A stretch of 64,000 nt of DNA, from positions 73,111 through 137,110 of the forward strand of contig JAQWLJ010000002.1 of the NCBI GenBank assembly GCA_029247365.1, given 5' to 3'. Positions within the stretch are counted from its first letter, which is position 1, and every line of letters begins with the position of its first letter. Source of the stretch: Acidimicrobiales bacterium (GTDB taxonomy: Bacteria > Actinomycetota > Acidimicrobiia > Acidimicrobiales > Aldehydirespiratoraceae). This document shows positions 10,716-44,203 of the stretch, piece after piece. The notes under the pieces were generated by a model that was not told the DNA's origin, did not search any database, and saw only the letters and a list, made by a program, of their open reading frames with translations. The translations under genes and the position numbers were made by a program.

Positions 10716-10757
10716 CTGCGGAGGCTAGGCCAGGAACGCCGAGCGGTCAGCCTCTGA

Positions 10758-11882
<1,125 letters not shown>

Positions 11883-15968: not shown

Positions 15969-17015
15969 TCAACATCCCGATCGGTGTGCCTCGGGTTCCC
16001 ACTCAAGAACGTGGAATCCACCGAACCCAGCGGCGTCGAGCAGGGCCTCAGCTTCTCGGAGACGACTCCGGCCCTTCAGCGCAGCAAGGTCGCCAACTGC
16101 GGAGCCGGCGTGCCACGCAGCCCGACCCTGATCAACGAGCTGGTCGATCCCGTGAGCTCGCAGAAAGTCGGCCTGCAGACGCACGCTCGTGGGGTGGAGT
16201 GCCAGGAGTTCGTCCAGCGGGAGGTCGACGGTGATGTCAACCAGGCCTGGATCAGCGAGCCAGTCGTCGATTCGATCGTGGTCTCGGTAGGCGCGTAGCC
16301 AGCCACCGTCACGAGTGACGAGTTCCTCCGCGGTGGCCATGTAGTCGAGCACAACGAGTCGTGCACTTGGGTGGCGCGCCCGCTGTGCAACCACCCAAGC
16401 AGCGGCGTTGTCGACACGCGGCAGCCTCGCACCATTTGCAATGGGCGGTGGAGCGACTGGGGGACCATCGACCAGGACAAACCGTCCGTCATCGATATCG
16501 ATGGCGAGCGCAACGCCTCGATCGCCGCGGCGGGCGACGATGTCGAACGGGAGGTTGTCGAGTAGCTCATTGGCGAAGACAACGTCCACGAGACCCTCCA
16601 CCTCGCTGGCGTCGGCGAAGGAGCTGAGAAAAGCACCTCCCGGGTGAGCTTCGCGCTGCGAAGCTGACGGTTCGATCATCACCCACCGAAGCGCTCCAGC
16701 GGCGAAACAGCCACCCTCCGCGGCCATGACGGTGCGCGCCAGCGTGCCCGGCCCAGCGCCGTGCTCAACAACAGTGAACCTCGCGGGTCGACCGGCTGAT
16801 TCCCACCACGAGTCGACGGCACCGCTGATGACGGCACCGAAAAGGGGCCCAACTTCGGGTGCCGTCAGAAAATCGCCGTGCCGTCCTGCCCGGCCGCCAA
16901 CCACATAGAAGCCTTCATGCTCGTCGTAGAGCGCAGCCTCAACGAACGTCGAGACGGGGATCGGGCCCTGATCGCGGATCTGGGCACGGAGGCGGTCGGC
17001 CAGCGGGGCCGCCAC
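15969..17015 (-). CDS. MidA/NDUFAF7-family SAM-dependent methyltransferase
   Basis: GFYVVGGRAGRHGDFLTAPEVGPLFG block. GTG 17015 lies 4 nt downstream of the nuoN stop (17020-17022); the tracked 17114 start would overlap nuoN. Confidence 0.7.
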   Translation of the reverse strand: MAAPLADRLRAQIRDQGPIPVSTFVEAALYDEHEGFYVVGGRAGRHGDFLTAPEVGPLFGAVISGAVDSWWESAGRPARFTVVEHGAGPGTLARTVMAAEGGCFAAGALRWVMIEPSASQREAHPGGAFLSSFADASEVEGLVDVVFANELLDNLPFDIVARRGDRGVALAIDIDDGRFVLVDGPPVAPPPIANGARLPRVDNAAAWVVAQRARHPSARLVVLDYMATAEELVTRDGGWLRAYRDHDRIDDWLADPGLVDITVDLPLDELLALHPTSVRLQADFLRAHGIDQLVDQGRAAWHAGSAVGDLAALKGRSRLREAEALLDAAGFGGFHVLEWEPEAHRSGC

Positions 17016-17019
17016 CGGA

Positions 17020-18528
17020 TCAGCCGCCGATACCAGCGAGGAGGCTGACGTCGAACTCGCTGATGAGCGACGGATACACACCGAAGGCGATCGTGACGCC
17101 GGCGGTGATGCCAAGGGCAGCCATCAGCGACGGGGTGACGCGCACCGGGGTGACGTCGCCGTCGGGAGCTTCTTCAGCCCACATTCCGAGGCCGATCCGG
17201 GCGTAGTAGTACAGCGCGATGACCGAGTTGACGGCGACGAACACTCCGAGCACCACACCCGAAGCAGTGTTGGCATCGATGACGGCTTCCATCACCCGGA
17301 ACTTGGCCCACCAGCCACCGAGCGGCGGAATGCCTGCAAGAGAGAACAAGAAGATCGTCATCGCAACCGTGAGCCCTGGCGCGTAGTGGAAGAGCCCGCC
17401 GAAGCTGTTGATCTCGGCCGAGCGGGTCTTGCGGGCGACGGCCATGACGACGGCGAAGGCCCCGAGGTTCATCGCTGCGTAAACGACGAGATAGGTCACC
17501 GTCGCCTCGAGCGCAACATCGCCGACAGTGCCCGCAACTGCGAGCGGCGCCAGCATGTAACCCGCCTGCGCGACGCCGGAGTAGGCGAGCATGCGGACGA
17601 TGTTGGTCTGTCGCAAAGCGATCAGGTTGCCGACCGTCATCGATGCCGCAGCGAGGATCCAGAGCACTGGCTCGTAGACATCGTCGCGGCCGAAGAAGCC
17701 GAGGAACAAGAGGTTCATCAGCGCCACAAAGCCGGCCGCCTTGGAGGCGACAGAAAGGAACGCGGTGACCGGGGTGGGGGCACCCTCGTAGGTGTCGGGT
17801 GCCCAGGTGTGGAACGGGAACGCCGACACCTTGAAGGCAAAGCCGATGATCACGAAGATGATGCCGAGTACGACCACGGCCGATGGGTTGCCGGCGGCAC
17901 TGATGGCCTCGTTGATGTTGACGAGCAGCGTTGAGCCAGCACCGCCGTAGAGCAGCGACATTCCGTAGAGCATGATCGCCGAGGCGAACACCCCCATCAG
18001 GTAGTACTTCAGACCCGCCTCGTTGCTCTTGAGGTCGCGCTTGCGCCAGGTTGCGAGCATGTACGCCGGAATCGACAGCAGCTCGAGCGCCACGAAGATC
18101 GTGATGAGGTCACGGGCTGAGGCCATGAGGACCATACCGAGCACCGAACTCAACAGGAGGCTGTAGTACTCGTTCTCCCAGTAGTCGCCCTCGGCGATGT
18201 AGTTCGTCGAGAGCAACACCACGACGTAGGCCGACAGCACGAACAGCGCCTTCATGACCAAGGCGTAGTTGTCGACGACAAACGCTCCGTTGAACATCGA
18301 ACGATCGGCACCGTCGACAGCCAGCGTGATGATCGGCACCATGGTGGCCAGCAGGCCAAGCGACGCCAGCAGCGGCGCCAGCCGACGCCCGCGCTCAAGC
18401 CAGATGATGTCCACCAACGTGAGCAATGCGCCGGCACCGAGCAGCGTGAGCTCGGGCGCGGCGGCGTGCCAGTCGATGGGGGGCCGGACGAAGTCCCCGG
18501 CGGACTGAGCGAGCTGGGCGAGCATCAT
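17020..18528 (-). CDS. nuoN: NADH-quinone oxidoreductase subunit N (EFG-less set)
   Basis: 502-aa polytopic antiporter-like subunit. Its start overlaps the nuoM stop by 1 nt. Confidence 0.9.
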   Translation of the reverse strand: MMLAQLAQSAGDFVRPPIDWHAAAPELTLLGAGALLTLVDIIWLERGRRLAPLLASLGLLATMVPIITLAVDGADRSMFNGAFVVDNYALVMKALFVLSAYVVVLLSTNYIAEGDYWENEYYSLLLSSVLGMVLMASARDLITIFVALELLSIPAYMLATWRKRDLKSNEAGLKYYLMGVFASAIMLYGMSLLYGGAGSTLLVNINEAISAAGNPSAVVVLGIIFVIIGFAFKVSAFPFHTWAPDTYEGAPTPVTAFLSVASKAAGFVALMNLLFLGFFGRDDVYEPVLWILAAASMTVGNLIALRQTNIVRMLAYSGVAQAGYMLAPLAVAGTVGDVALEATVTYLVVYAAMNLGAFAVVMAVARKTRSAEINSFGGLFHYAPGLTVAMTIFLFSLAGIPPLGGWWAKFRVMEAVIDANTASGVVLGVFVAVNSVIALYYYARIGLGMWAEEAPDGDVTPVRVTPSLMAALGITAGVTIAFGVYPSLISEFDVSLLAGIGG

Positions 18529-20126
18529 CAGCCTCCGGACGCCGCCTTGGCTGCATCGGCGACACCCTCACAGCCGTCAGGCAGCTGCAGGCAGTTGTTG
18601 AGCGACTCGACGACGGCCGGGTCGGTGACCTCGAAGATCAGACCGGGGGCGACACCGAAGAGCACGATCAGGAAGAGCAGCGGCGACCACGCAATCCACT
18701 CGAACGTGTTGACGTCGGTGATCTCGGGATCGTCTTTGAACTCATCGGGTGGCTCACCCATCGCAGTGCGCTGCAGCAACCACAGCAGGTAGCCGGCGGC
18801 AAGGACGGTGCCGATGGCGGCGACGACCATGTAGCCGCGGAAGGTTTCCTCGGCGAGACCGTTGGCCGGGTTGTAGGCCGACAGAATCGCCGGGAACTCA
18901 CCCCAGAAGCCGGCGAGGCCAGGCAGGCCGAGCGACGCCATCGCGGTGAAGCCCAGGATCCACCCGAGGTGCGGCGCCTGCACCAGCATGCCGCCAAGGC
19001 GGCCGATCTCGAGGGTGTGATAGCGCTCTTTCACCGAACCGGCGACGAAGAAGAGCATGCCGGTAATCAGGCCGTGAGCGACCATGCCAAAGATGGCGGC
19101 GTTGATACCGAAGTCGGTGAGGGTGGCGATGCCGAGCATTACGAAGCCCATGTGAGCCACCGACGAGAACGCGATCAGGCGCTTCATGTCGGTCTGGGCC
19201 AGACAGCCGAGAGCGCCGTAAATGATGCCGATGACGGCGAGCAGACCAATGTACGGAGCCCACGCCTCGGCCGCCTCGGGCAGCATCGGGATGGCGATGC
19301 GGATGAAGCCGTATGTCCCGAGCTTCAGAAGCACGGCCGCCAGAATGACCGAACCCTGGGTGGGTGCCTGGGTGTGGGCGTCCGGCAGCCAGGTGTGGAA
19401 CGGGAACATCGGGACCTTCACACCGAAGCCAAGGAACATGCCACCGAAGATCAGCAGCTGGCTGCTTCGGGTGATGCCGAGGCCCGCATTGTTCGTGAGG
19501 TCGACCATGTTGAAGGTGTGTTCACCGAGCGAGTCGGCCGACAAGAAGAACAGCGCGAGGAATCCCAGCAGCATGAGTGCCGACCCAAACAGCGTGTAAA
19601 GGAAGAACTTCAGCGACGCATAGCGGCGATCCTCGCCACCCCACACCGCGATCATGAAGAACATCGGGAGCAAGACGACCTCGAAGAAGACGAAGAACAA
19701 GATGAGGTCCTGCGCCACGAAGGTGCCGAGCATGCCCGTCTCAAGGATGAGCATCAGCATGAGGAATGCTTTGGCGTTACCCGGTGACGGGATGTGGTCC
19801 CACGAGTAGATGAAGACCAGCGGCATCACGAGCACGGAGAGCGCGATGAGCGGCAGGGACATGCCGTCGACGCCGATCGTATAGCCCGCGCCAATGACCT
19901 CGATCCATTCCTTGTCGAGCCAGTACTGGATCTGGCCGGCATTGTCGTAGTCGAAATCGAGCAACAACCAGACGCCGAGGCCAAGGGTGACCAGCGACGT
20001 GAGGAGGGCGAGCTGCTTGTGCAGCCCCTCTTCTTCGGAGGGGAAAAGCGCCATGATGAGCGCACCTGCCAGCGGGGCGAAGACCAGAGCGGTCAGCAGC
20101 CAGTCGTTTCCTGCGATGGGATCCAT
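18528..20126 (-). CDS. nuoM: NADH-quinone oxidoreductase subunit M (EFG-less set)
   Basis: 532-aa antiporter-like subunit with FPFHTWLPDAH and KLGTYG blocks. Confidence 0.9.
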   Translation of the reverse strand: MDPIAGNDWLLTALVFAPLAGALIMALFPSEEEGLHKQLALLTSLVTLGLGVWLLLDFDYDNAGQIQYWLDKEWIEVIGAGYTIGVDGMSLPLIALSVLVMPLVFIYSWDHIPSPGNAKAFLMLMLILETGMLGTFVAQDLILFFVFFEVVLLPMFFMIAVWGGEDRRYASLKFFLYTLFGSALMLLGFLALFFLSADSLGEHTFNMVDLTNNAGLGITRSSQLLIFGGMFLGFGVKVPMFPFHTWLPDAHTQAPTQGSVILAAVLLKLGTYGFIRIAIPMLPEAAEAWAPYIGLLAVIGIIYGALGCLAQTDMKRLIAFSSVAHMGFVMLGIATLTDFGINAAIFGMVAHGLITGMLFFVAGSVKERYHTLEIGRLGGMLVQAPHLGWILGFTAMASLGLPGLAGFWGEFPAILSAYNPANGLAEETFRGYMVVAAIGTVLAAGYLLWLLQRTAMGEPPDEFKDDPEITDVNTFEWIAWSPLLFLIVLFGVAPGLIFEVTDPAVVESLNNCLQLPDGCEGVADAAKAASGG

Positions 20127-20156
20127 GAGTCAGTGCTTCCTAAATGGATGTGAGTG

Positions 20157-22499
20157 CTAGAGGGCGAGAAGGATGACGAAGGCGCCAGCCAAGAGGGCAG
20201 CGCCGGCAAACATGATTGCGGCGTAGTTCTGGACCTTGCCGGAGTTGATGGCGCGGAGTTCTTCGCCGGAGGCGTCGGAGACACGACCCGACAGGTTGAC
20301 GGCGCCGTCGACGATGGTCTGGTCGATCTTGTGGTACACGAGTTGGCCGGTCTGCACGGCGGACTCGCCCGCCTTGTTGACCATGCCGTCGATGACGTTC
20401 TGGTTGACCCAGTTCACCGCTCGAGCGAGCGGGCCCTTTGTGAACCCGGCGATGACGCCGGTGTACAGGTGATCGAGGTAGTACTTGTTCACCAGCAGGT
20501 TGTGGCCGGCCCGGGCAAAAACGTTGGTGGTAGTAACCCCGTTGGGCATGCCGACCAGCGACTCGCCAAGTTGCTTGGAAAGTCGGTCGAGTCGAACGAA
20601 GTAGTAGTAGTACGCGAACGCGGCACCCACGACGGCGACCAGCGACGCAACGATGGCGAGCGACCAGCTCGGTGTGGCGTGTCCCACTGCAGGGAAGTAC
20701 GACGAACCAGCGGGTTCGATGAAGTGGAGGAAGCGTTCCTGCCAGCCTGAGGGATTCTTCTTCGAACCGGTGAGGAAACCGGGCGGGAAGTTGACGAAAC
20801 CAATGAGGATCGAGAACGCCGACAGGATGTAGAGCGGGTAGAGGATTCGAGGGCCCGATTCATGCGGCTCACCATGGTGAGCATGATCGTCGGCGTGGTC
20901 GTCGGCGTGGTCCTCATGATGGCCACCGCGGTACTCGCCGTGGAACGTGAGGTAGACGCAGCGGGTCATGTAGGCGGCAGTGAGCGCAGCGCCGATCATG
21001 CCCATGACGAAGTGGAAGGTGTAACTGCCCGGAGCCGCACCGCTACCGCCGAGCACACCCCACCCACCGGTGTTGACAAGAATCTCATCCTTGGACCAGA
21101 AGCCCGCGAGCGGGAACACACCGGCAAGCGCCAGCGAACCGATCACAAACGTGATGTAGGTCTTCGGCATGAACTTCCGCATACCGCCCATGTCGCGCTT
21201 CATGTCGAAGCTGTGGACGGCATGCGCAACCGAGCCCGAACCGAGGAACAGGTTGGCCTTGAAGAAAGCGTGGGTGAAGAGGTGGAACACTGCCGCAGTC
21301 CAGGCGCCAACGCCAAGGGCCATCGCCATGTAGCCGAGCTGCGAAACCGTCGAGTAGGCGAGCACCTTCTTGATGTCGTCCTGCACAAACGCCAGCAGAC
21401 CCGCACCGACCACGGTGATCGCACCAACGGTGGCGAGCAGGTTGATGCTCGAGCCTTCGATCTGCATGCCTTCCCAGAAGACCGGGTACAGGCGGGCGAC
21501 CATGTAGATACCGGCGACGACCATGGTGGCGGCGTGGATGAGCGCCGACACAGGCGTCGGACCGGCCATGGCGTCGGGCAGCCAGGTATGCAGCACGAAC
21601 TGGCCCGACTTCGACATGACGGCGGCTGTGAGACACGCCGCCGCAACGACCAGCGCTGTGTGGCTGACGCCACCCTGCACGATGGCCTCGTTGATCTTGA
21701 TGGTGTCGAAGGTCGTGCCACCACCGGCAGCGAAGAAGAGCGTGATCATGCCAACCAAGAGGCCAACGTCGCCGACACGGTTGGTGAGGAAGGCCTTCAG
21801 CGCGGCATCGCTGTTGGGCTTCTCTTCCCACCAGTGGCCGATAAGGGCGAACGAACAGACACCGACGAGCTCCCAGCCGACGATCATCTGAAGAATGTTG
21901 TCGCTGAGGACGAAGAACAGCATCGACGCAGTGAACAGTGACAAGAACGCAAAGAAGTGCGTATAGCGCCGATCGCCGCTGACATAGTCGGTCGAGTAGA
22001 TGTGCACCAGCAGCGAGATGAACGTGACGACGAAGAGCATCATCACGCTGAGGCCATCGACCATGATCCCGGCGTTGAATTCGATACCCCCAGACTGCAG
22101 CCACTGGGTGGACTGCTGCACGGCGACGTAGGCGTGGGTCCCGCCGTCGCCCGCTTCAGCAGCGAGGGTGCCAACCGCGTACTCGGCGGTGTCGCTCGCA
22201 GAGCCCGCACCGTCGCTCAAGGCAATGGCGTGCTCGTCGTCGTGCTTTTCGAGCTCGAAGTTGTCGCGGTGATCCATCCACGCAACACCGCTGAGGATCG
22301 CAAGGACGAACGACGCTGACACGGCAGCGATGCCGATCTCGGCGCCCTTGTATGGCATGCGCTTGCCGAAGAACAGGATCAGGACGAATGAGATCGCCGG
22401 GAGCAGTGGGATGATCCACGCGTTCTCCAGGAACCAGTTGGCGTCGTTGGTGACGGTGGTGACCTTCGAGACGGCGTCGGCAGCGAGGGTGGCGAACAC
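20157..22499 (-). CDS. nuoL: NADH-quinone oxidoreductase subunit L (EFG-less set), extended
   Basis: 780 aa. HTWLPDAMAGPTPVSALIHAATMV block and a C-terminal lateral-helix region. Has an extra N-proximal insertion and a His/Asp-rich loop. Confidence 0.9.
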   Translation of the reverse strand: MFATLAADAVSKVTTVTNDANWFLENAWIIPLLPAISFVLILFFGKRMPYKGAEIGIAAVSASFVLAILSGVAWMDHRDNFELEKHDDEHAIALSDGAGSASDTAEYAVGTLAAEAGDGGTHAYVAVQQSTQWLQSGGIEFNAGIMVDGLSVMMLFVVTFISLLVHIYSTDYVSGDRRYTHFFAFLSLFTASMLFFVLSDNILQMIVGWELVGVCSFALIGHWWEEKPNSDAALKAFLTNRVGDVGLLVGMITLFFAAGGGTTFDTIKINEAIVQGGVSHTALVVAAACLTAAVMSKSGQFVLHTWLPDAMAGPTPVSALIHAATMVVAGIYMVARLYPVFWEGMQIEGSSINLLATVGAITVVGAGLLAFVQDDIKKVLAYSTVSQLGYMAMALGVGAWTAAVFHLFTHAFFKANLFLGSGSVAHAVHSFDMKRDMGGMRKFMPKTYITFVIGSLALAGVFPLAGFWSKDEILVNTGGWGVLGGSGAAPGSYTFHFVMGMIGAALTAAYMTRCVYLTFHGEYRGGHHEDHADDHADDHAHHGEPHESGPRILYPLYILSAFSILIGFVNFPPGFLTGSKKNPSGWQERFLHFIEPAGSSYFPAVGHATPSWSLAIVASLVAVVGAAFAYYYYFVRLDRLSKQLGESLVGMPNGVTTTNVFARAGHNLLVNKYYLDHLYTGVIAGFTKGPLARAVNWVNQNVIDGMVNKAGESAVQTGQLVYHKIDQTIVDGAVNLSGRVSDASGEELRAINSGKVQNYAAIMFAGAALLAGAFVILLAL
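20889..20912. repeat. Perfect 12-bp tandem duplication (GTCGGCGTGGTC x2) inside nuoL
   Basis: Read directly from the sequence. On the coding strand it gives DHADDHAD within HHEDHADDHADDHAHHGEPHE. Confidence 0.9.
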
Positions 22500-22503
22500 A
22501 GCG

Positions 22504-22803
22504 TCAGCCCTTCAGCAGATCGGCCTCAGAGAGGTCGATACTGCGGCGGTTGCGGTACATGAGCAAGACGATGGCAAGACCGATGCCGACTTCGGCGGCA
22601 GCGACTGCGATCGTGAAGAGGGCGAACACGGCACCACCGACATCGTCGGTGAGCGTGCCGAACGCCACGAGGTTGATGTTGACGGCGTTGAGGATCAACT
22701 CAATCGACATCAATACGAGCATGCCGTTCTTGCGAACGAGGACGCCGTACACGCCGATACAGAACAGCACGGCGGCAAGCAGGAGGAACTGGTTGAGCAG
22801 CAT
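22504..22803 (-). CDS. nuoK: NADH-quinone oxidoreductase subunit K (EFG-less set)
   Basis: 99 aa with 3 TM segments and a [10 protein letters not shown] block. Confidence 0.9.
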
Positions 22804-22815
22804 GAGCGATCCTCC

Positions 22816-23346
22816 TCAGTCCTGCCGGGCCACGACGATGGCCCCGATGAGGGCGGCGAGCAGAAGCACGGACACGGCCTCGAACGGCACGATGTACTGG
22901 CTGAAGATCGAGTCGGACACCGTGGCCACCGACTGCGGTTCGTCCGCAGTGATCTCGGTATCGTCGAAGGAATCGACGAGTGCAAGGGCCATCACAGCGA
23001 AGAGCAGGATGCCGACGACGCTGGCCATCGCCCTTTTCTCATCGGCGACAGTTTCGTCGTCGCCCATCGACGCCCGCGTGAGCATGACACCGAACAAGAA
23101 CAGCACGATCACCGCGCCGATGTAGACAAGAATCTGCGTCACGGCGACAAACTCGGCACCGAGGAAGAGGAACTGGACGGCGACGCCGGCGAGCACGACG
23201 ACCAGCCACAGGGCGGCGTGTACCACGTTCTTGGTGGTCACGACCCGCAGCGCTGCGTAGACCATCACGGCGGCAATGACGCCCCAGAACGAGTTGACCA
23301 CCCACTTCTCGGTGGTGGTGAACTCGGCGAGAAGAAGACCGGTCAC
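22816..23346 (-). CDS. nuoJ: NADH-quinone oxidoreductase subunit J (EFG-less set)
   Basis: GTG 23346 overlaps the nuoI stop (GTGA). [26 protein letters not shown] blocks. Confidence 0.85.
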
Positions 23347-23882
23347 GTTGCCGGCACCGTCTTCACCTTGGCCTCTGAACCAGCCTCGTAGGGCTCGAAG
23401 GCCGGGACCGTCTCCATCCACTCCGCAAGGCGCGACTTGTCATGGAGCAGGTCAGCGATGCGGGGCTCAGAGAACTCGTACTCCGGGCTCCAGAAGAGCG
23501 CATCGAACGGACAGACCTCGACACAGATGCCGCAATACATGCACAGCGCAAAGTCAATGTCGAAGCGATCGAGCGCGTTGACCTGACGGGGCTTGCCGCC
23601 GGCCCGGCGAGGTGGTGCCTTCTCCTTGTGGCCCTCGATATAGATGCACCAATCGGGGCACTCACGGGCACAGAGCATGCACGCCGTGCAGTTCTCCTCG
23701 TGCAGGGCGATGACGCCGCGGGCACGCGCCGGCGGTTCTTCCTTCTCGTGCGGGTACTGCACGGTCTCGGCGCCCTTGACGGGGTTCGGGATCGGCTTCT
23801 TGATCCCGTCAGGAAAGACGGTCCGCAAGATGGTGCCACCGGTGACACCGAGCCCCTTGATAAGTCCTGGTACGAGTCCCAT
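23343..23882 (-). CDS. nuoI: NADH-quinone oxidoreductase subunit I (EFG-less set)
   Basis: Start set at ATG 23882. Two CxxCxxCxxxCP motifs ([24 protein letters not shown]). Confidence 0.9.
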
Positions 23883-23890
23883 AGCGAGTC

Positions 23891-24919
23891 CTAGAAGGCG
23901 ACCTTGAGCACGCCGGTGACCACGATGTTGGCCAGGGCGATTGGAATGAGGACCTTCCACGCCAGCTTCTGGAGCTGATCCTCGCGGAAGCGGGGGAAGG
24001 TGAAGCGAACCCAGAACACGACGAACGTGAGCACGACGATCTTCGTGATCAACACGATCGGGCCGAGGACGTTCATGATGTTGTCGGCAGGGTCGATACC
24101 GGGGATGTACCAGCCGCCGAGGAAGAGCACCGCAGCAATCGCGCTGAACACGCCAGCGGTGGCGAACTCGCCGATGAAGAAGAGCAGGAACCGCATACCG
24201 GAGTACTCGGTCATATAGCCAGTGACCAGCTCCGACTCGGCGATCGGCATGTCGAACGGGGTCTGGGTGAGCTCGGCCTGCATCGCAACCATGAAGATCA
24301 GGAATGCCACACCCTGGGTCAGGATGTACGGGTTACCGATGACCCCCCAGCCGAAGATCTCGCCCTCGGCCTGGGCGAGCACGATGCCCTGCATGTTCAT
24401 TGTCTCAGCCTGGATGACGACGCCGAGCACGGCGAGAATCAGCGGCAGCTCGTAGGCAATGAGCTGGCCCGTAGCGCGCAGGCCGCCGAGCAGCGAATAC
24501 TTGGACGCGGAACCCCAACCAGCCATGAGAATGCCGATGACCGACACTGACGACACGGCCATCCCGAGGTAAATGCCGATCTCAGAGTCGACGAACCAGG
24601 CGTCGGGACCGCCGGGCACCACGACCACCAGCAGGAAGGTCGACATGAGCACCACGAATGGCGCCGCTGCGAAGACGAAGCGATCGGCCTTGCGAGGGAA
24701 GATGTCTTCCTTCTGGATGAACTTGCCTACCTCAGCGAGCAGCTGGAGCGAGCCGAACGGGCCCGCTTCCATCGGGCCGAGCCGGCTCTGCATGAACGAC
24801 ACCAGTTTGAACAGGTGGAGATACACCAGGGTGCCGGCGACCAGCAGCACAGCTGCGAGACCGCCCACGACGCGCAGCGTGGTCTGAGCCCACCAGGGAT
24901 CGGTGATAGCCGCGATCAT
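23891..24919 (-). CDS. nuoH: NADH-quinone oxidoreductase subunit H (EFG-less set)
   Basis: ATG 24919 overlaps the nuoD stop (ATGA). [14 protein letters not shown] and EYSGMRF blocks. Confidence 0.9.
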
Positions 24920-26088
24920 CGGTCGATGTCCCCCAAGATGAAGTACAGCGATCCCAGGATCGTGATGATGTCGGGCACGTAGACGCCCTTCAGCAGCCAC
25001 GGCGTGATCGAGATGTTGTTGAACGACGCCGAACGGATCTTGACTCGATACGGAACGAGATCGCCCTTCGACACGACGTAGTACCCCATCACGCCCAGCG
25101 GATTTTCGGTCTCGACGTAGGCCTCACCGGCGGGCACCTTGATGATGCGCGGCACCTTCGCCATGATCGGGCCGCCGGGCAGCCCATCGAGCAGCTGATC
25201 AACCATCTTCGTGCTCTCGCGCACCTCCTGGAGACGGACCCAGAAGCGGGCGAACGAATCACCGTCGACGTGGGTCCAGACCTTCCAGTCGAGCTCGTTG
25301 TGCACGAGGCCGCCCGGATTGTCGCGGCGGGTATCCCAGTCAACGCCCGAGGCGCGAATGTTGGCACCCGACAGGCCGTAGCTAAGACCGACGTCGGCAG
25401 GGATGACACCAATGCCACGGGTACGGGCCTCGAAGATCTCGTTGCCCTGCAACAGGCCTTCGATCTCGTCGCAGAAGTTGCGCATCTTCTTCATGGCGCG
25501 CTTGGTCTCAGTAATCCAGCCGGCTGGCAGGTCGTCCTTCAGGCCGCCGATGCGATCGAAGTTCGGATGGAAGCGGCCACCAGTGGCTGCCTCGATCTGG
25601 TTGAGGACGTGCTCACGGTCGCGGAAGGCGAAGAAGGCGGGGGTGACTGCGCCGACCTGCAGGCCCATGTCGCCGAGGAACAGCGAGATGTTGGCGATTC
25701 GGCTCATCTCGAAGAGGATCGTTCGGATCCACTGGGCTCGAGGCGGCGCCTCGACCTCCATGAGTTTCTCGGCGGCGAGGATGAACGGGACCTCGTTCGC
25801 GAAGCTACCGACCCAATCGATGCGGTTAATAAGGGTGGTGACCTGCGGGTACGTGCGAACCTCAGCGAGCTTCTCGTACCCGCGGTGCATGTAGCCCATG
25901 ATCGGATCAACCGCGATGACCTGCTCACCGTCGAGCTTGGCGACGATGCGCAACGTGCCATGTGTGGCCGGGTGCTGGGGCCCGATGTTGAGGGTCATGC
26001 CCTCAGTCTCAAGCTCTACGTTGACGCGGGCATCGGCGGCCTGGGCTGCGATGTAGGCGAGCTGCTCCCGATCCGAAATCGCCGTCAC
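24916..26088 (-). CDS. nuoD: NADH-quinone oxidoreductase subunit D (EFG-less set)
   Basis: GTG 26088 overlaps the nuoC stop. IGPQHPATHGTLRIV block and a C-terminal [11 protein letters not shown]. Confidence 0.9.
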   Translation of the reverse strand: MTAISDREQLAYIAAQAADARVNVELETEGMTLNIGPQHPATHGTLRIVAKLDGEQVIAVDPIMGYMHRGYEKLAEVRTYPQVTTLINRIDWVGSFANEVPFILAAEKLMEVEAPPRAQWIRTILFEMSRIANISLFLGDMGLQVGAVTPAFFAFRDREHVLNQIEAATGGRFHPNFDRIGGLKDDLPAGWITETKRAMKKMRNFCDEIEGLLQGNEIFEARTRGIGVIPADVGLSYGLSGANIRASGVDWDTRRDNPGGLVHNELDWKVWTHVDGDSFARFWVRLQEVRESTKMVDQLLDGLPGGPIMAKVPRIIKVPAGEAYVETENPLGVMGYYVVSKGDLVPYRVKIRSASFNNISITPWLLKGVYVPDIITILGSLYFILGDIDR

Positions 26089-26780
26089 GATGCGTCTCCA
26101 CTCTCGTCGTCGTCGCCGGGCATCTGTTCGACGTCGACAATGCCAGGCCACGGCTTCAGGCGGCGGGCGAGCAGCGGGTAGTCCTTGCGCAGCGGGTTCC
26201 CTTCGAAACCGCTCGGCAGATAGATGTGGCGCAGGCCCGGATGACCGTCGAAGGAGATTCCGTACATTTCCCAGCACTCACGCTCGTGCCAGTCAGCGCC
26301 AGCGAACACACCGGTCCACGAGGCGAGGGTGAGGTCGTCGTCGGGGACGTCAACCTTCAAGGTGACGCCGAGTCCGTTGACGATGTCATTGACACGGGCG
26401 AAGACTTGGAACCGGGTCTCGCCGCCGGTGACCCCATGTTCGAGCGAAGAGTCGATCTCGGAGGCCTCGTCGTGACCCAGCTCGATGTCGACTTGGGAGT
26501 CCATGTCGCGACCGAAGGGCGACGGCATCCAGTCGATAGCCGACAGGAAGTTGAAGTACTGGAAGCCCAGACCGGTCTTGAGGTAGTCGCCAGCGTCGAC
26601 CCACGCCTCGCGGGTGACACGGATCCAAAGATCGTCGTCGGGCGCGAGGTGGCTCTCGACCAGACCGTCACCAAGTTGGGCGGCGAGATGGGTGAGGAGG
26701 TCGCTGCGGGCGTTGTCGACGGCAGCCTCAGCCACGTCGGCGGTCTCTTCAGGGGTGTCAGTCGACGACAACCGGCTCAC
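26085..26780 (-). CDS. nuoC: NADH-quinone oxidoreductase subunit C (EFG-less set)
   Basis: 30-kDa subunit blocks ([28 protein letters not shown]). The start is uncertain; GTG 26780 is the nearest in-frame candidate to the nuoB stop. Confidence 0.8.
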
Positions 26781-27258
26781 CCTTCCAACGCTCAGCCATG
26801 TCTTCGTTTTGGATGCGCTCCTGAAGCAACACGATGCCCTCAAGGAGCGCTTCGGGGCGAGGCGGACAGCCAGGTACATAGACGTCGACGGGGATGATCT
26901 GGTCGACACCCTTCGTGACGGAGTACGAGTCCCAATACGGGCCGCCACAGTTGGCACACGAGCCCATCGAGATCACGTACTTGGGTTCGGGCATCTGCTC
27001 GTACAGCCTTTTGACCGACGGGACCATCTTGTCGGTGACCGTGCCTGACACGACGAGGAGGTCGGCTTGGCGAGGAGATGCCGGCAACGGAATGACGCCG
27101 AGACGCATAACGTCGTAACGAGGCGACGCGAAGGCGGCGCCCATCTCGATCGCGCAGCACGCGAGACCCCACTGGTACACCCACATGGAGTACTTGCGGC
27201 TCATGTTCAGCAGCGTCTGGAGACCACCGCCGACCTTTCCGGATTCGACTAGGCCCAC
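26758..27258 (-). CDS. nuoB: NADH-quinone oxidoreductase subunit B (EFG-less set)
   Basis: N2-cluster ligand blocks [19 protein letters not shown] and GCPPRPE. Confidence 0.9.
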
Positions 27259-27614
27259 TTGAGCACTCCCTTGCGCCAGGCGTAGATCAGGCCCAGCAAG
27301 AGGATGAAGATGAAGATCGCCATCTCGATAAGGCCGAAGACTTCGTAAACCTCAAGCCGGGTAGCCCAGGGGAAGATGAAGACCGCTTCGACGTCGAACA
27401 TGACGAAGAGCAGGGCAAAGACGTAGTACCGGATGTTGGCCTGGGACCACATGTCGCCGGTGGGGTCGACGCCCGATTCATAGGCCTCGAGCTTGGCTTC
27501 GGTGGGCTTGCTGGGTCGGAAAATACGACCAAGACCAAGGAACGCGCCGACCAGCGCAACGCCGGTGAGACCGAAGATCCCAACGGTCAGGTAACTACGA
27601 AGAAAATCCGACAC
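27249..27614 (-). CDS. nuoA: NADH-quinone oxidoreductase subunit A (EFG-less set)
   Basis: 121 aa with 3 TM segments. YESG.DP and FDVE..F..PW blocks. GTG start. Confidence 0.9.
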
Positions 27615-27870
27615 GAAAGGCGAGCCTACTCAGGGAATTTTGGGCAGAACAAAGCCGGGCACAGCACGTTTCCCAGCGCCGTGAGGCTACCGCCGAGCAG
27701 GGCTGTTCACCGTGATCAGGCCTCGCATTTTTGTGCTGACACTGCAGGAAATGAAGGCGACCCAGTCTTGGCCACCGTTCTCGGTCGCACATCGTCGGCG
27801 CTGGGGCCGAAACCGGGCGCATGTGTCTCGATGACGCAAGCCAGAGCTGGGCCGAACTGACCGGCCTCAA
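27615..27870 (-). promoter_or_regulatory. 256-nt gap, the only sizeable gap in the respiratory array; presumed promoter/leader of the EFG-less nuo operon
   Basis: Assigned by position only. No convincing -35/-10 or terminator could be read. The tracked ORF 27595-27870 lacks coding character. Confidence 0.3.
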
Positions 27871-29400: not shown

Positions 29401-31089
29401 TCAGCCTGCCGCGACCAGCTGTGGGATCGCCTCGCGAGTGATCGAGTCGAGCTCGCCCGGCAACACACCGAACACGATCGTGACGGCAACAGCGATCGCA
29501 ATCGCCACACCGGCGGTACGCGGCACGTGGATTGCCGGCGCGTCGTCGGCCGCCTGACCGAGATAAATCGACAGGATGATCCGTAGGTACAGGAACGCCG
29601 AGACGACAGCGGTCACCATGGCAGCAAGAGCCAACCAGTACGAACGGGCCTCCACTGCGGCACCGATCACCTCGAACTTGGCGACGAACCCTGACGTCAA
29701 GGGAACGCCGGCCTGTGCCAGCAGGAAGATCGTGAGCGCAAACGCCAGGGCGGGTCGCCGCGTTGAGAGACCGTCGAGGTCATCGAGGCTCGTGGAACGG
29801 TCACCCTGACCGCTGACCAGCGAAAGCACACCGAAACTACCGATGACAAGGAACGTGTAGGCGACCGCATAGAACGCCACCGCATTGACACCTTCGGGGC
29901 TGGCGGCTTGGACGCCAACAAGAATGAAACCGGCGTGACTGATCGACGAGTAGGCCAGCATGCGCTTGGCGTCGCGCTGAACGATCGCCATGAATGAACC
30001 GACGACCAGCGTGAGCAGGGCGAGGCCGTAGACGGCGGGTTGCCAGTCGGCCGCATAGTCACCGAAGGTCACCATGAACACCCGCACGATGGCAGCGAAG
30101 CCGGCGGCCTTCACCACCGAGGCCATGAACGCGACGACCGGTGTCGGGGCGCCCTGGTAGACGTCGGGAGTCCACGCGTGGAACGGCGCGGCCGCGACTT
30201 TGAAGCCGAGACCAACGAGCAGCATGGCAAAGCCAACCATCAGCAAGCCGTTGTCGATCAACACGATCGCATCGAGGAAGAAGCGGATCTCGATCAGATT
30301 CGTCGAGCCGGTAGCGCCGTAGACGAGGGCGATTCCGTAGAGCAGGAACGCGGACGCAAACGCGCCGAGCACGAAGTATTTGAGGCCCGCTTCCTGGCTC
30401 TCACTGCGTCGACTGTGCATCGCCGCCATGACGTAGACCGCAATGCTCAGGGTCTCGAGACCGAGAAACAGCACGATCAGGTCGTTGGCACCAGCCATGA
30501 CCACACCACCGGCTGCAGAGAACAGCATGAGGACGTACATCTCAACGCCGTCGATGCCCTCACGCCGCAGGTAGTCGTCGAGCAGGAACGACACCAGCAC
30601 GACCGACGCTGCGATCACACCGGTGATCACCAGCGCAAAACCGTCGATGCCGTACTGATCGCCAAGAGCGCCGAACGCGCCACTGGCTCCGAACCGGCCA
30701 TTCCACAGACCGAACGTGGCAGCAAGCGCGACGAGACCCACCGCCGAGGCGAGCGCCGCATCGAGACCGATCCGCAGCGATCGAGCGCTGACGGCCCCGA
30801 GCCCCATGGCGACCGCGAGGCCGACGTAGTACGCACCGTCACCCACGTCAGAGCGGGTAGCTGCGAACGCAACCTCGGTTCCGGCGAGTCCGTGGGCGGC
30901 CCACATGCCGACCACAGTCATGGCGCCGACAGCTGGGATGGCCTGGCCGGTAGCGGCCACCGGCAGTTGCTTGACAACCGACCGGAACATGACGATCAGC
31001 AGCGCTCCTGCACCGAGGATCATCAAGGGTGCGAGGCCCTCCCACACGATCTCGGGGCGAACGACAGGAAGGGAGGCCTGGGCGAACAT
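29401..31089 (-). CDS. nuoN: NADH-quinone oxidoreductase subunit N (14-subunit set)
   Basis: 562-aa antiporter-like subunit with a 1-nt overlap with nuoM. Confidence 0.9.
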   Translation of the reverse strand: MFAQASLPVVRPEIVWEGLAPLMILGAGALLIVMFRSVVKQLPVAATGQAIPAVGAMTVVGMWAAHGLAGTEVAFAATRSDVGDGAYYVGLAVAMGLGAVSARSLRIGLDAALASAVGLVALAATFGLWNGRFGASGAFGALGDQYGIDGFALVITGVIAASVVLVSFLLDDYLRREGIDGVEMYVLMLFSAAGGVVMAGANDLIVLFLGLETLSIAVYVMAAMHSRRSESQEAGLKYFVLGAFASAFLLYGIALVYGATGSTNLIEIRFFLDAIVLIDNGLLMVGFAMLLVGLGFKVAAAPFHAWTPDVYQGAPTPVVAFMASVVKAAGFAAIVRVFMVTFGDYAADWQPAVYGLALLTLVVGSFMAIVQRDAKRMLAYSSISHAGFILVGVQAASPEGVNAVAFYAVAYTFLVIGSFGVLSLVSGQGDRSTSLDDLDGLSTRRPALAFALTIFLLAQAGVPLTSGFVAKFEVIGAAVEARSYWLALAAMVTAVVSAFLYLRIILSIYLGQAADDAPAIHVPRTAGVAIAIAVAVTIVFGVLPGELDSITREAIPQLVAAG

Positions 31090-32716
31090 CAGTGGTCCTC
31101 TTCCTCGTGATCGGGATCATCGCCGTGGTCATCACCGTGATTCAGATGATCGAGGTCAACCGATGGCATTACATCGGCCTCAGGCTCTTCGAAGTCGTCG
31201 ACGTTGGCTTCAACGTGGGAGATGAGGGCGTCGACCGCCGGCTCTATCCGCTCGAGGACCGGCTTCGGGTAGAGGCCCATGAAGAAAATAGCGATGAGGA
31301 ACGGCAAAATAACTGCACCCTCGGACCAGGTGAGGTCGGCCATGTCGGCGTTGTCACCCTCGACCGGGCCGTGAAACACGCGCTGGTAGGCCCACAACAG
31401 GTACAGGGCTGCAATGATCACGCCGGCCGCGGCCACGATCGCCCACCACCTGAAGGCGGCGAACGCCCCAAGCAGCGCCAGGAATTCGCCGACGAACCCG
31501 TTCATGCCGGGTACGCCGATCGAGCTGAGCATCACGACCATAAATACTGCGGCGAATATCGGCGCTGGCTTCTGGAGGCCGCCGAGCTTCGCGATCTCAC
31601 GGGTGTGGCGGCGGTCGTAGAGCCAACCGACCAGCAGGAAAAGCGCGCCGGTAGAGATGCCGTGGTTCACCATCTGTAACAAACCACCGGACATACCCTC
31701 GGTATTGAGGGCGAAGGTGCCAATGACGATGAAGCCGAGGTGGGCCACCGATGAGTAGGCGACCAGGCGCTTGAGGTCCTTCTGCATTGTGGCGGCGATA
31801 GCGCCGTAGATGATGCCGATCGTGCCGAGGGCGACCAGTGCAGGGGCGAAGAACACCGCCGCCTCTGGAAACAGATAGATGCCGAAGCGAAGGAAGCCGT
31901 AGGTGCCGAGCTTCAACATGACGCCTGCGAGAATCACTGAACCCGCAGTGGGTGCGTTGGTGTGCGCGTCGGGGAGCCACGTGTGGACCGGGAACAACGG
32001 CACCTTGACCGCAAACGCGACTGCAAAGCTGAGGAAGATCCACCGAGCAGTATTGGTGGCGAGCGCCTGTGTCTCAGCCAGGGTCACGAGGTCGAACGTG
32101 ACCGGATTGCCGGTTTCTGCAGCCGTGAGGAACGCCGTCGCAAGAATGCCAACCAGCATCAAGGCCGAACCAAACATCGTGTAGACGAAGAACTTTGTGG
32201 CGGCGTAGGCCCGCTCACCGTGACCCCATTGGCCGATGAGGAAGTACATCGGCACGAGCACGATCTCGAAGAACACGAAGAAGGCGAACAGGTCGAGCGC
32301 CAAGAAGACACCGAGACAGCCGGCCTCGAGGACCAGAAGCCACGCGTAGTAGGCCTTGGGAGTGTGTTCGGCTTCGATCGCAATGATCGCAAGCGGGAAC
32401 AGCGCCACCGTCAGCACAACCAGCCACAGCGAGATGCCATCAAGACCGAGGCTCCACGAGATGCCGAGGCTCTCGATCCAGGTCCACGAGTCGACGAACT
32501 GCATGTCGGCAGCGCTGCTCTTGTCGAACTCGAGCATTACCCAGGTCGCAATACCGGCCGTGGCGACAGCGAACAGGAAGGCGACTTCCTTGAAGTAGCC
32601 CTCGCGGTTCTTGGGAAGCACCAGGAGCGTGATGGCGCCGATGAGCGGCAGCACGACGATCGTGGTGAGGACCGGGAAGGAGACCGAAGCCGACGACGCG
32701 GCGAGTAGTGACTGCA

Positions 32717-32717
<1 letters not shown>
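31089..32717 (-). CDS. nuoM: NADH-quinone oxidoreductase subunit M (14-subunit set), His/Asp-rich C-terminal tail
   Basis: 542 aa. FPVHTWLPDAH block. The tail reads DLDHLNHGDDHGDDPDHEEEDH. Confidence 0.9.
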
Positions 32718-35011
<2,294 letters not shown>

Positions 35012-35025
35012 GGTCAGTCCCTCAC

Positions 35026-35343
35026 CTAGCCCCTGAGCAGCGCCACGTCATCGGCGGTCGCATCCCGGCGACGACGGTTGATCGCCACAACGATGGCGAG
35101 GCCGACGACGACCTCCACCGCAGCGACGACGAGAACGAAAAACACGGCCAACTGGCCACCGACGTCATTGAGGTCGGCACCGAAGGCCACAAACGAGATA
35201 TTGACCGCGTTGAGCATCAGTTCGACACACATGAACATCACCAGCGGGTTGCGTCGGATCAGCAGACCGGCTGCGCCGATGGCAAACATCAGCGCCGACA
35301 GCACGAGGTAGTACGAGGTCGTGAGTTCGAGTTCGGCAGGCAT
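35026..35343 (-). CDS. nuoK: NADH-quinone oxidoreductase subunit K (14-subunit set)
   Basis: 105 aa with 3 TM segments and a [12 protein letters not shown] block. Confidence 0.9.
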
Positions 35344-44201: not shown

Positions 44202-44203
44202 CG

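What the first reader, a model, noticed from the sequence alone, without database searches (positions are those of the whole stretch)
17020..27614. Second complex-I operon with 11 genes (nuoABCDHIJKLMN) and no NADH-oxidising module
All quinone-module and membrane-module genes are intact. The N2 ligands in NuoB, both 4Fe-4S motifs in NuoI, and the HPATHG block in NuoD are present, but nuoE, nuoF and nuoG are absent; nuoD overlaps nuoH directly. NuoEFG form the NADH dehydrogenase module. Known 11-subunit relatives use other donors: ferredoxin in photosynthetic NDH-1, F420 in Fpo, and flavodoxin in Campylobacter. No donor-docking subunit is visible in this operon, so the electron input is unknown.
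Basis: partly seen in the sequence, partly recalled or inferred. Interest (0 to 1): 0.6.

Follow-up and report, generated by a model that had tools for sequence, protein, structure and literature searches.

The report
Known NADH-module-less second complex I
This is the intact second respiratory complex I that actinobacteria carry without its NADH-oxidising part; the layout is already published for this class, its electron donor is still unknown, and its quinone pocket always has a tryptophan where other complex I enzymes have a key tyrosine.

Summary
On the minus strand, 27614..17020 holds eleven tightly coupled, intact genes (nuoABCDHIJKLMN) with no nuoE, F or G. They lie 1.8 kb downstream of a complete 14-gene nuo operon. 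All eleven are under strong purifying selection (dN/dS 0.02-0.15).

It is not new. Two neighbouring nuo clusters, one lacking EFG, are published for Ca. Actinomarinales in the same class (PMC7771536). Second nuo sets are also known in Streptomyces, and 11-subunit complex I is a described class (PMC3144371). This scan has reported the same thing on other genomes several times.

What I add:
- The operon belongs to a phylum-wide actinobacterial "nuo2" clade. Its NuoD always has Trp at the quinone-ligand position Tyr87 and keeps the mitochondrial methyl-arginine position.
- Three genomes of another actinobacterial family carry only this 11-gene operon and no NuoF at all. Borrowing NuoEFG from the neighbouring operon therefore cannot be the general mechanism.
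- An orphan FpoF-like protein and the 2-oxoacid:ferredoxin oxidoreductase KorA do not co-vary with the operon. Flavodoxin and NdhS were not found in this genome.

My best guess is a ferredoxin-fed, menaquinone-reducing proton pump. The donor remains unproven. The tool for finding expression data was closed.

The parts
27249..27614 (-). nuoA2 (121 aa)
   Evidence: PF00507 at 3.6e-36. Orthologues are 120-127 aa in 20 genomes.
26758..27258 (-). nuoB2 (166 aa), carrier of cluster N2
   Evidence: PF01058 and NF005012 at 222 bits. The CCAIE, GSCA and PGCPP ligands align to PSST/Nqo6. It is 68-72% identical to the second NuoB of Streptomyces, Actinomadura, Kribbella and Acidothermaceae.
26085..26780 (-). 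nuoC2 (about 231 aa; start at 26780 or 26735)
   Evidence: PF00329 at 6e-30. It is the least conserved Q-module subunit (23% identical to NuoC1).
24916..26088 (-). nuoD2 (390 aa) with HPATHG, the Arg of HRGYEK, and Trp in place of Tyr87
   Evidence: PF00346. The best solved relative is T. thermophilus Nqo4 at 334 bits. NRIDW is invariant in 21 of 21 orthologues. It belongs to the W87 clade, supported at 99% SH-aLRT.
23891..24919 (-). nuoH2 (342 aa); its start overlaps the nuoD2 stop (ATGA)
   Evidence: PF00146 at 5.5e-96. The junction is shown.
23343..23882 (-). nuoI2 (179 aa), 2x[4Fe-4S], with a conserved basic loop [15 protein letters not shown] between the two motifs
   Evidence: Alignment to TYKY/Nqo9. 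The loop is conserved in 19 orthologues and differs from NuoI1.
22816..23346 (-). nuoJ2 (176 aa)
   Evidence: PF00499 at 1.4e-38.
22504..22803 (-). nuoK2 (99 aa), preceded by a GAGGAGG ribosome-binding site
   Evidence: PF00420 at 1.8e-28. Both membrane glutamates are visible in the sequence.
20157..22499 (-). nuoL2 (780 aa), with lineage-specific insertions including a His/Asp-rich loop
   Evidence: NF005141 at 581 bits, over its cut-off. Orthologues are 665-832 aa.
18528..20126 (-). nuoM2 (532 aa)
   Evidence: TIGR01972 at 547 bits. It aligns end to end with solved NuoM, and the conserved TM5 Glu, TM7 Lys, TM8 Lys and TM12 Glu motifs are kept.
17020..18528 (-). nuoN2 (502 aa)
   Evidence: PF00361 at 5.8e-71.
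15969..17015 (-). MidA/NDUFAF7-type methyltransferase gene, 4 nt after nuoN2; probably a maturation factor for NuoD2
   Evidence: PF02636 at 1.1e-20. It lies downstream of nuoN2 in most but not all Acidimicrobiia loci. It lies within 5.5 kb of the orphan W-type nuoD in 20 of 24 Actinomycetes loci.
27615..27870 (-). 256-nt intergenic region upstream of nuoA2, with a weak terminator-like hairpin at 27776-27756; probably a separate transcription unit
   Evidence: No sigma-70 consensus was found.
29401..45252 (-). Context: the complete 14-gene nuoA-N operon (with nuoE, F and G) directly upstream on the same strand
   Evidence: This tandem order recurs in many Acidimicrobiia and in one genome (G426) of family f91.

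Best explanation
**Identity (near certain).** The operon encodes the actinobacterial "nuo2" enzyme. This is an 11-subunit complex-I-like redox pump made only of the quinone module (NuoB, C, D, I) and the membrane module (NuoA, H, J, K, L, M, N).

**Mechanism (inferred).**
- It works on its own, without NuoEFG.
- A soluble low-potential carrier docks directly on the exposed face of NuoI2. That face carries a conserved Lys/Arg-rich loop.
- The carrier is most likely one of the genome's small acidic single-cluster ferredoxins. More than one donor is possible.
- Electrons pass through the two NuoI clusters and N2 in NuoB2 to menaquinone.
- The menaquinone pocket is remodelled: Trp replaces the proton-donating Tyr87, and in this order Gln replaces Asp139.
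- The antiporter-like subunits pump protons.
- The MidA-type methyltransferase gene behind nuoN2 probably methylates the conserved Arg of NuoD2 (HRGYEK).
For: **Intact and selected**
- All 11 families are present with their cofactor motifs.
- dN/dS against the nearest relative is 0.02-0.15 for every gene.
- The operon type was found in 142 of 150 sampled Acidimicrobiia, including genomes of about 1 Mb.
- Gene order is invariant in 20 genomes, with no extra conserved gene.

**Independence from NuoEFG**
- Genomes G376, G446 and G486 (three genera of family f91; 96, 91 and 92% complete) have the full 11-gene W-type operon.
- They have no NuoF-family hit at E <= 1e-10 and no second NuoB or NuoD.
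- D2, I2 and C2 are only 37, 33 and 23% identical to their paralogues.
- A 256-nt spacer with a hairpin separates the two operons.

**Donor**
- Flavodoxin and NdhS were not found in this genome.
- At least three small acidic ferredoxins of 63-77 aa are encoded.
- The NuoI2 inter-cluster loop is basic and conserved.
- Published analogies are ferredoxin-fed NDH-1 and the proposal that 11-subunit enzymes take electrons from several donors without a dedicated partner (PMC3144371; PMC11238625).

**Quinone-type enzyme**
- All subunits score best with Nuo models, not Fpo, Ndh or hydrogenase models.
- NuoD2 lacks the NiFe cysteine pairs.
- The N2 tandem cysteines are present.
Against: - No experiment and no expression data support this.
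- KorA, the ferredoxin-reducing 2-oxoacid oxidoreductase, does not co-vary with the operon. It was not found in four complete or near-complete genus g2 genomes, in family f25, or in the three f91 genomes that have only nuo2. It is present in family f4, which lacks nuo2.
- Trp cannot donate the proton that Tyr87 donates in canonical complex I, so quinone chemistry at this site is uncertain.
- In nearly all Acidimicrobiia, nuo2 coexists with a full nuo1, often in tandem. That also fits a functional link with nuo1.
- The basic NuoI2 loop has not been mapped onto a structure.
Confidence: 0.45

Rival explanations
1. F420H2 is the donor, as proposed for Ca. Actinomarinales. The orphan FpoF/FrhB-like flavo-iron-sulfur protein on contig C32 docks on the complex and makes it an Fpo-like F420H2:menaquinone oxidoreductase.
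For: - F420 biosynthesis genes cofD and cofE are present.
- CofD occurs in 148 of 151 sampled Acidimicrobiia.
- A 386-aa protein with two N-terminal [4Fe-4S] motifs plus an FrhB domain aligns full-length to FpoF models.
- It is found in 38 of 39 same-order genomes.
- It is found in all four f91 genomes, including the three with nuo2 only.
- The hypothesis is published (PMC7771536).
Against: - The FpoF-like gene was not found in 62 sampled genomes of six families that keep nuo2: f12 0/15, f15 0/26 (the Actinomarina-size genomes), f19 0/8, f21 0/6, f24 0/6 and f30 0/1.
- It is present in families f4, f10 and f33, which lack nuo2.
- It is never next to the operon.
- Its score to FpoF models is 132 bits against a cut-off of 475.
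- Every nuo2 subunit scores lower with Fpo models than with Nuo models.
- CofD is near-universal in the class and so does not discriminate.
Confidence: 0.15
2. The N-module is shared. NuoE, F and G made from the upstream 14-gene operon assemble on both cores, so nuo2 is a second NADH:menaquinone oxidoreductase with different membrane or quinone properties.
For: - Both types occur together in nearly all nuo2-bearing Acidimicrobiia. Only G042 and G036 gave a single NuoD hit, and G036 keeps nuoF at a contig edge.
- The two operons are in tandem in many lineages.
- Five of five Actinomycetes genomes checked have both NuoB types, 40-55 kb apart.
Against: - Three genomes of family f91 have nuo2 but no NuoF-family gene at all.
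- G042 (98% complete) also shows no NuoF1 or NuoD1 orthologue. Its assembly is fragmented, so this is weak evidence.
- The subunits that would contact NuoG (D, I, C) are only 23-37% identical between the two sets.
- The NuoI2 surface loop differs in length and charge from NuoI1.
Confidence: 0.12
3. The enzyme does not work as a forward quinone reductase. Either it runs in reverse, using proton-motive force to drive menaquinol to reduce ferredoxin or F420. Or the Trp-containing pocket handles a different acceptor or has a sensing or regulatory role.
For: - Trp replaces the proton-donor Tyr87 in all 26 W-type sequences examined.
- The partner Asp139 is Gln in this order.
- Asp401 is Tyr in the Acidimicrobiia loci L010-L021 and in this window.
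- Degli Esposti (PMC4758237) treats Y87, F146 and D401 together as the signature of quinone or methanophenazine reactivity.
- The cell already has a canonical complex I.
Against: - His38, the N2 tandem cysteines, NuoH and all antiporter motifs are canonical.
- Deeper Acidimicrobiia lineages keep an acid (Glu) at position 139 and Asp at position 401.
- The paper read reports that Tyr87-equivalent mutants keep activity with short-chain quinones.
- There is no positive evidence for another substrate.
Confidence: 0.13
4. The 11-gene set is a decaying or silent duplicate.
For: None was found. It is a paralogue set beside a complete operon.
Against: - No frameshifts or internal stops.
- dN/dS is 0.02-0.15 for all genes.
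- NuoD2 is 85-91% identical in more than 100 protein clusters from metagenomes and genomes, several named Acidimicrobiales.
- It is retained in genomes of about 1 Mb.
Confidence: 0.01

Closest known systems
Truncated 11-gene nuo cluster of Ca. Actinomarinales (class Acidimicrobiia), Lopez-Perez et al. 2020, PMC7771536
   Same: It is in the same class and has the same gene set (no E, F or G). It also sits next to a complete nuo cluster. My sample includes these genomes: L052 and L053 are named Ca. Actinomarina and Ca. Actinomarinales, with NuoD2 55-56% identical and the same gene order.
   Different: Here the two operons are 1.8 kb apart, with a sulfite-oxidase-family gene between them rather than heliorhodopsin and iron genes. 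A MidA gene follows nuoN2 here but not in the Actinomarina loci L026 and L027. The paper's F420 proposal does not fit those genomes, because I found no FpoF-like gene in 0 of 26 of them.
Streptomyces-type nuo2 (nuoA2, B2, H2-N2; annotated since the S. avermitilis and S. coelicolor genomes; gene names used in PMC8388888)
   Same: The B2 orthologue is 68-72% identical. The order of the remaining genes is the same, and there is no E, F or G. It coexists with a 14-gene nuo1 nearby.
   Different: In Actinomycetes the operon has no nuoD. The W-type nuoD is an orphan gene elsewhere, usually near a MidA-like gene and the fol genes. The window keeps the complete 11-gene form.
11-subunit complex-I-like enzymes in general (Moparthi & Hagerhall 2011, PMC3144371; Desulfitobacterium hafniense, PMC11238625)
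   Same: The subunit set is the same, NuoD has no NiFe ligands, no dedicated partner protein has been found, and the donor is unknown.
   Different: Those surveys treat it mainly as the only complex I of the organism. Here it is a paralogue beside Nuo14. It forms its own deep NuoD clade with Trp at Tyr87. All other full-length NuoD representatives near it have Tyr, with a few exceptions.
Cyanobacterial and chloroplast NDH-1 (for example PDB 6hum, 6nbq)
   Same: It has 11 core homologues, no NuoEFG, and ferredoxin as donor. NdhH is the second-best solved match to NuoD2 at 314 bits.
   Different: NDH-1 needs extra subunits, including NdhS, for ferredoxin binding. NdhS was not found in this genome. 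NdhH keeps Tyr87, Asp139 and Asp401.
Archaeal F420H2 dehydrogenase Fpo
   Same: The 11 core homologues are shared. An FpoF-like protein exists in this genome.
   Different: The FpoF-like gene is unlinked and does not co-vary with the operon. All subunits fall far below the Fpo model cut-offs and score below the Nuo models.

Membership tests
[quoted passage not shown] | One cluster with homologues of NuoA, B, C, D, H, I, J, K, L, M and N | tested here: met
   Pfam and NCBIfam hits for all 11; contiguous and overlapping genes.
[quoted passage not shown] | No nuoE, nuoF or nuoG in the cluster | tested here: met
   The nuoD2 stop overlaps the nuoH2 start. tblastn with E1, F1 and G1 finds nothing in 17020-27614.
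[quoted passage not shown] | NuoD lacks the NiFe cysteine pairs of hydrogenases; NuoB carries N2; NuoI carries two [4Fe-4S] clusters | tested here: met
   HPATHG and a C-terminal GDIDR with no Cys pairs; N2 ligands; two CxxCxxCxxxCP motifs.
[quoted passage not shown] | Functions without an N-module | tested here: inconclusive
   This cannot be tested for this organism, which has NuoEFG next door. It is indirectly supported by three related genomes with this operon type and no NuoF.
Actinobacterial nuo2 paralogue | Second nuo set beside a 14-gene nuo1; NuoB2 orthologous to the Streptomyces-type B2 | tested here: met
   B2 is 68-72% identical to the second NuoB of five Actinomycetes, against 49% to their first. 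The B2 type occurs in at least 149 of 401 sampled Actinomycetota.
Actinobacterial nuo2 paralogue | NuoD of the Trp87 clade (NR[IH]DW) with Arg in HRG.EK | tested here: met
   The clade is supported at 99% SH-aLRT.
Canonical NADH:quinone oxidoreductase (Nuo14) | Own NuoE, F and G with FMN/NADH site | tested here: not met
   Absent from the operon.
Canonical NADH:quinone oxidoreductase (Nuo14) | Quinone ligands His38 and Tyr87 with Asp139 in NuoD | tested here: not met
   His38 is kept. Tyr87 is Trp and Asp139 is Gln.
Fpo (F420H2 dehydrogenase) | FpoF subunit associated with the complex | tested here: not met
   An FpoF-like gene exists on another contig. Its distribution is uncoupled from the operon.
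Fpo (F420H2 dehydrogenase) | Subunits reach the NCBIfam Fpo model cut-offs | tested here: not met
   FpoD 318 of 600, FpoH 242 of 475, FpoL 398 of 1050 and FpoK 112 of 145 bits. All are below the corresponding best Nuo model scores.
Photosynthetic NDH-1 | Ferredoxin-docking accessory subunits (NdhS and others) | tested here: not met
   PF11623 (NdhS) gives no match in the 98.2%-complete genome, while the control hits Synechococcus. Other Ndh accessory subunits were not searched.
Membrane-bound hydrogenase / formate hydrogenlyase type | NiFe large subunit with cysteine ligands | tested here: not met
   No Cys pairs in NuoD2. Hydrogenase chains are the weakest PDB matches, at 127-143 bits.

The most novel reading that the evidence does not exclude
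The whole actinobacterial nuo2 clade may not be a canonical quinone reductase. It has an invariant Trp in place of the proton-donating Tyr87. In this order it has also lost Asp139. It keeps a conserved Arg at the mitochondrial methyl-arginine position, and a MidA-type methyltransferase gene is linked to its nuoD across the phylum. Together these could mark a complex I variant with different acceptor chemistry or direction, for example pmf-driven reduction of a low-potential carrier. That activity might be tuned by arginine methylation.
Probability: 0.15. Interest if true: 0.7.

Novelty: already known. Interest (0 to 1): 0.3.

Why it matters
The electron donor of N-module-less complex I enzymes has been an open question since at least 2011. 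Acidimicrobiia and Streptomyces relatives are abundant in oceans, soils and wastewater, so a second proton pump fed by something other than NADH would change their energy budgets.

This window does not make the question newly testable by itself. The comparative results narrow it:
- NuoEFG sharing cannot be the general mechanism.
- An FpoF-type F420 input cannot be general either.
- Flavodoxin and NdhS were not found.

The invariant Tyr-to-Trp change, together with the linked methyltransferase, gives concrete mutational and mass-spectrometry targets in culturable relatives.

Tried and rejected
- **Promoter scan.** It found no sigma-70-like site. This is uninformative for a high-GC actinobacterium.
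- **FpoF-like orphan as obligate partner.** Rejected by its distribution.
- **KorA (2-oxoacid:ferredoxin oxidoreductase) as obligate electron source.** Rejected by its distribution.
- **At least one of FrhB-like or KorA in every nuo2 genome.** This nearly holds. The exceptions are G030, G103 and the 85%-complete G096. Both genes are too common for this to mean much, so I do not rely on it.
- **CofD (F420) distribution.** Near-universal in the class, so uninformative.
- **G468 as a nuo2-only genome.** Rejected. nuoM1 and nuoN1 lie upstream, the contig ends soon after, and nuo1 is probably just unassembled.
- **G042 as a nuo2-only Acidimicrobiia genome.** Kept only as weak evidence. It is in 110 contigs, and G074 of the same genus (g8) has both sets.
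- **Formate-dehydrogenase-like NuoE-F/NuoG-like locus on C18 as an alternative input module.** Not supported. It is unlinked, and no NuoF-family hit exists in the f91 nuo2-only genomes.
- **Sulfite-oxidase-family gene between the two operons as a partner.** It is absent from every other locus compared, including the closest relative L062.
- **Naming the nearest Tyr-type NuoD relatives.** The listing of cluster members gave only unnamed metagenome proteins.
- **Literature search for natural Tyr87-to-Trp variants.** Nothing relevant was found in the library.

Full report
**What is there**

The window is part of contig C23 of a 3.1-Mb genome that is 98.2% complete. Its nearest named relatives are Acidimicrobiales MAGs. 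A "Candidatus Aldehydirespiratoraceae" MAG has a NuoD2 about 93% identical.

On the minus strand, eleven ORFs run from 27614 to 17020. Each matches the expected complex I family: NuoA, B, C, D, H, I, J, K, L and M and NuoN.

The likely starts make a tightly coupled operon:
- A2/B2 overlap by 10 nt.
- C2/D2 share GTGA.
- D2/H2 share ATGA.
- M2/N2 overlap.

Nothing can be encoded between nuoD2 and nuoH2, which is where nuoE, F and G sit in the upstream 14-gene operon (45252..29401).

Cofactor motifs are present:
- The tandem-Cys N2 ligands in NuoB2.
- Two CxxCxxCxxxCP motifs in NuoI2.
- HPATHG in NuoD2.
- The conserved charged-residue motifs of an antiporter-like subunit in NuoM2.

There are no frameshifts. 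Against the closest relative, dN/dS is 0.02-0.15 for all eleven genes.

**Surroundings**

A MidA/NDUFAF7-type methyltransferase gene starts 4 nt after nuoN2.

Upstream, a 256-nt spacer with a weak terminator-like hairpin separates nuoA2 from a sulfite-oxidase-family gene, which follows the 14-gene operon. That Mo-enzyme gene is absent from every other locus I compared, including the closest relative. It is not part of the system.

**Is it new?**

No.
- Lopez-Perez et al. 2020 (PMC7771536) describe two neighbouring nuo clusters, one lacking EFG, in Ca. Actinomarinales, an order of the same class. They say other actinobacteria have the same and cite the Streptomyces avermitilis genome paper.
- Moparthi and Hagerhall 2011 (PMC3144371) describe 11-subunit complex I as widespread, actinobacteria included. 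They found no dedicated partner protein.
- The 2024 Desulfitobacterium study still calls the donor unknown (PMC11238625).
- The scan's notebook shows the same finding on several other Acidimicrobiia genomes.

**Distribution and family**

In 150 sampled Acidimicrobiia genomes, a NuoD2-type gene was found in 142. The identity to this NuoD2 is 53-83% for the full-length matches (three are contig-end fragments). A NuoD1-type gene accompanied it in nearly all. Eight genomes have only the NuoD1 type: five of family f4 and one each of f5, f10 and f33.

In 20 genomes spread over the class:
- The order ABCDHIJKLMN is invariant.
- No extra conserved gene appears.
- nuoN1 of the 14-gene operon often lies directly upstream.
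- MidA follows in most lineages but not all.

A search of one representative per 50%-identity cluster, followed by a tree of 99 NuoD sequences, gave one clear result. The Acidimicrobiia NuoD2 and a second group with the motif NRHDW lie together on one side of a branch with 99% SH-aLRT support. They are separate from T. thermophilus Nqo4, from this genome's NuoD1 and from all other representatives.

That second group comes from class Actinomycetes. It includes Actinomadura, Kribbella, Streptosporangium, Nonomuraea, Streptomyces and Acidothermaceae, at 48-51% identity. In those genomes:
- The gene is an orphan, with no other nuo gene within 10 kb.
- A MidA-like gene lies within 5.5 kb in 20 of 24 loci.
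- A nuo2 operon A2-B2-C2-H2-I2-J2-K2-L2-M2-N2 without nuoD lies 40-55 kb from nuo1. Its NuoB2 is 68-72% identical to the one here.

Phylum-wide, the B2 type was seen in at least 149 of 401 sampled genomes. The window therefore holds the complete, probably ancestral, form of a phylum-wide actinobacterial "nuo2" system.

**An altered quinone pocket**

The numbering below is that of T. thermophilus Nqo4.
- His38 is kept.
- Tyr87, one of the two quinone ligands, is Trp in all 21 Acidimicrobiia orthologues and in every W-clade sequence. NuoD1 keeps Tyr.
- Asp139, the partner of His38, is Gln in this order and Glu in deeper lineages.
- Asp401 is Tyr in this window and in loci L010-L021, and Asp in the deeper lineages L022-L029.

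Degli Esposti 2015 treats Y87, F146 and D401 as the signature of quinone or methanophenazine reactivity (PMC4758237). I found no paper on natural Trp variants in the library.

By my knowledge of bovine numbering, the Arg in HRG.EK is the position of the dimethyl-arginine of mitochondrial NDUFS2. It is present in NuoD2 and in all 26 W-type sequences. It is Thr in NuoD1 and in Thermus. This fits the linked MidA gene.

**Who feeds it electrons?**

I tested four candidates.

1. *Shared NuoEFG.*
   - Nuo14 accompanies nuo2 in nearly all Acidimicrobiia, so the class itself cannot decide.
   - In another actinobacterial family (f91), three genomes from three genera (96, 91 and 92% complete) carry the full 11-gene W-type operon. 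They have no NuoF-family hit at all and no second NuoB or NuoD.
   - A fourth genome of the family has the tandem Nuo14-then-Nuo11 layout.
   - Obligatory sharing is therefore unlikely.
2. *F420 through an FpoF-like subunit.*
   - The genome makes F420 (CofD and CofE).
   - It has an orphan 386-aa FrhB/FpoF-like protein with two N-terminal [4Fe-4S] motifs.
   - That gene was not found in 62 sampled genomes of six families that keep nuo2, including all 26 Actinomarina-size genomes.
   - It is present in families that lack nuo2.
   - It is present in all four f91 genomes.
   - It may be a donor in some lineages but cannot be the general one.
3. *Ferredoxin from KorAB.* KorA is present here but does not co-vary with nuo2 either.
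4. *Flavodoxin or NdhS.* Neither was found in this genome.

The genome does encode at least three small acidic single-cluster ferredoxins of 63-77 aa. NuoI2 carries a conserved basic loop ([15 protein letters not shown]) between its two cluster motifs. The NuoI1 loop there is shorter and not basic.

**Conclusion**

With high confidence, this is an ordinary member of the known actinobacterial EFG-less nuo2 family.

With moderate confidence (about 0.45), it is a stand-alone proton pump fed by ferredoxin, or by several donors, that reduces menaquinone in a non-canonical pocket.

The rivals, with my estimates:
- F420 through the FrhB-like protein: 0.15.
- Shared NuoEFG: 0.12.
- Reverse operation or non-quinone chemistry: 0.13.
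- Decay: 0.01.

Noticed in passing
G000 contig C18, about 20.9-25.2 kb (L001:6917-11214, minus strand): A formate-dehydrogenase-like locus with an odd order. The Mo-binding part of FdhA (model positions 141-672) comes first. A 590-aa NuoE-NuoF fusion follows. Then comes a HoxU/NuoG-N-terminal-like FeS protein that ends with the Fe4S4 domain belonging at the FdhA N-terminus. This is either a split, permuted enzyme or an assembly or frameshift problem.
   Followed up: partly
L064-L109 (Actinomadura, Kribbella, Streptosporangium, Streptomyces and others), match at about 10001-11100 of each locus: In class Actinomycetes the Trp87-type nuoD is a stand-alone gene. It lies far from the D-less nuo2 operon, near the folP, folB and folK genes. 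A MidA-like methyltransferase gene lies within 5.5 kb in 20 of 24 loci.
   Followed up: partly
G000 contig C32, 3132-4292 (L005:889-2049, plus strand): An orphan FpoF/FrhB-like protein of 386 aa with two [4Fe-4S] motifs and an FrhB domain. It follows a rhodanese/MoeB-like gene. It is conserved in 38 of 39 same-order genomes. Its function is unknown.
   Followed up: partly
window 20157-22499 (nuoL2): NuoL2 is 780 aa, against 665-710 aa in most orthologues. The extra length is an acidic insertion after the first helices and a His/Asp-rich tract (HHEDHADDHADDHAHHGEPHE).
   Followed up: no
window 27871-29396: The sulfite-oxidase-family Mo enzyme gene and the small membrane ORF between the two nuo operons have no counterpart between the operons in any other locus compared. 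That includes the closest relative, whose NuoD2 is about 93% identical. It looks like a recent insertion.
   Followed up: partly
L121:3112-4674 (Streptomyces sp.): NuoC2 of the Streptomyces nuo2 operon is 520 aa. It carries a low-complexity, repeat-rich C-terminal tail of about 370 aa (repeats of SASEGSASQ type).
   Followed up: no
L123:2895-4145 (genome G376, family f91): A geranylgeranyl-reductase-family FAD protein lies about 1 kb upstream of the only complex I operon of this genome. It may be a menaquinone side-chain reductase.
   Followed up: no
genomes G030 and G103 (Acidimicrobiia, family f25): These two genomes keep nuo2 but gave no hit for CofD, the FrhB-like protein or KorA. They are useful test cases for any donor hypothesis.
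   Followed up: no
window 26958-26978 (nuoB2): NuoB2 reads [10 protein letters not shown] where mitochondrial PSST reads GSCANGGGYY. This puts an extra cysteine next to an N2 ligand.
   Followed up: no
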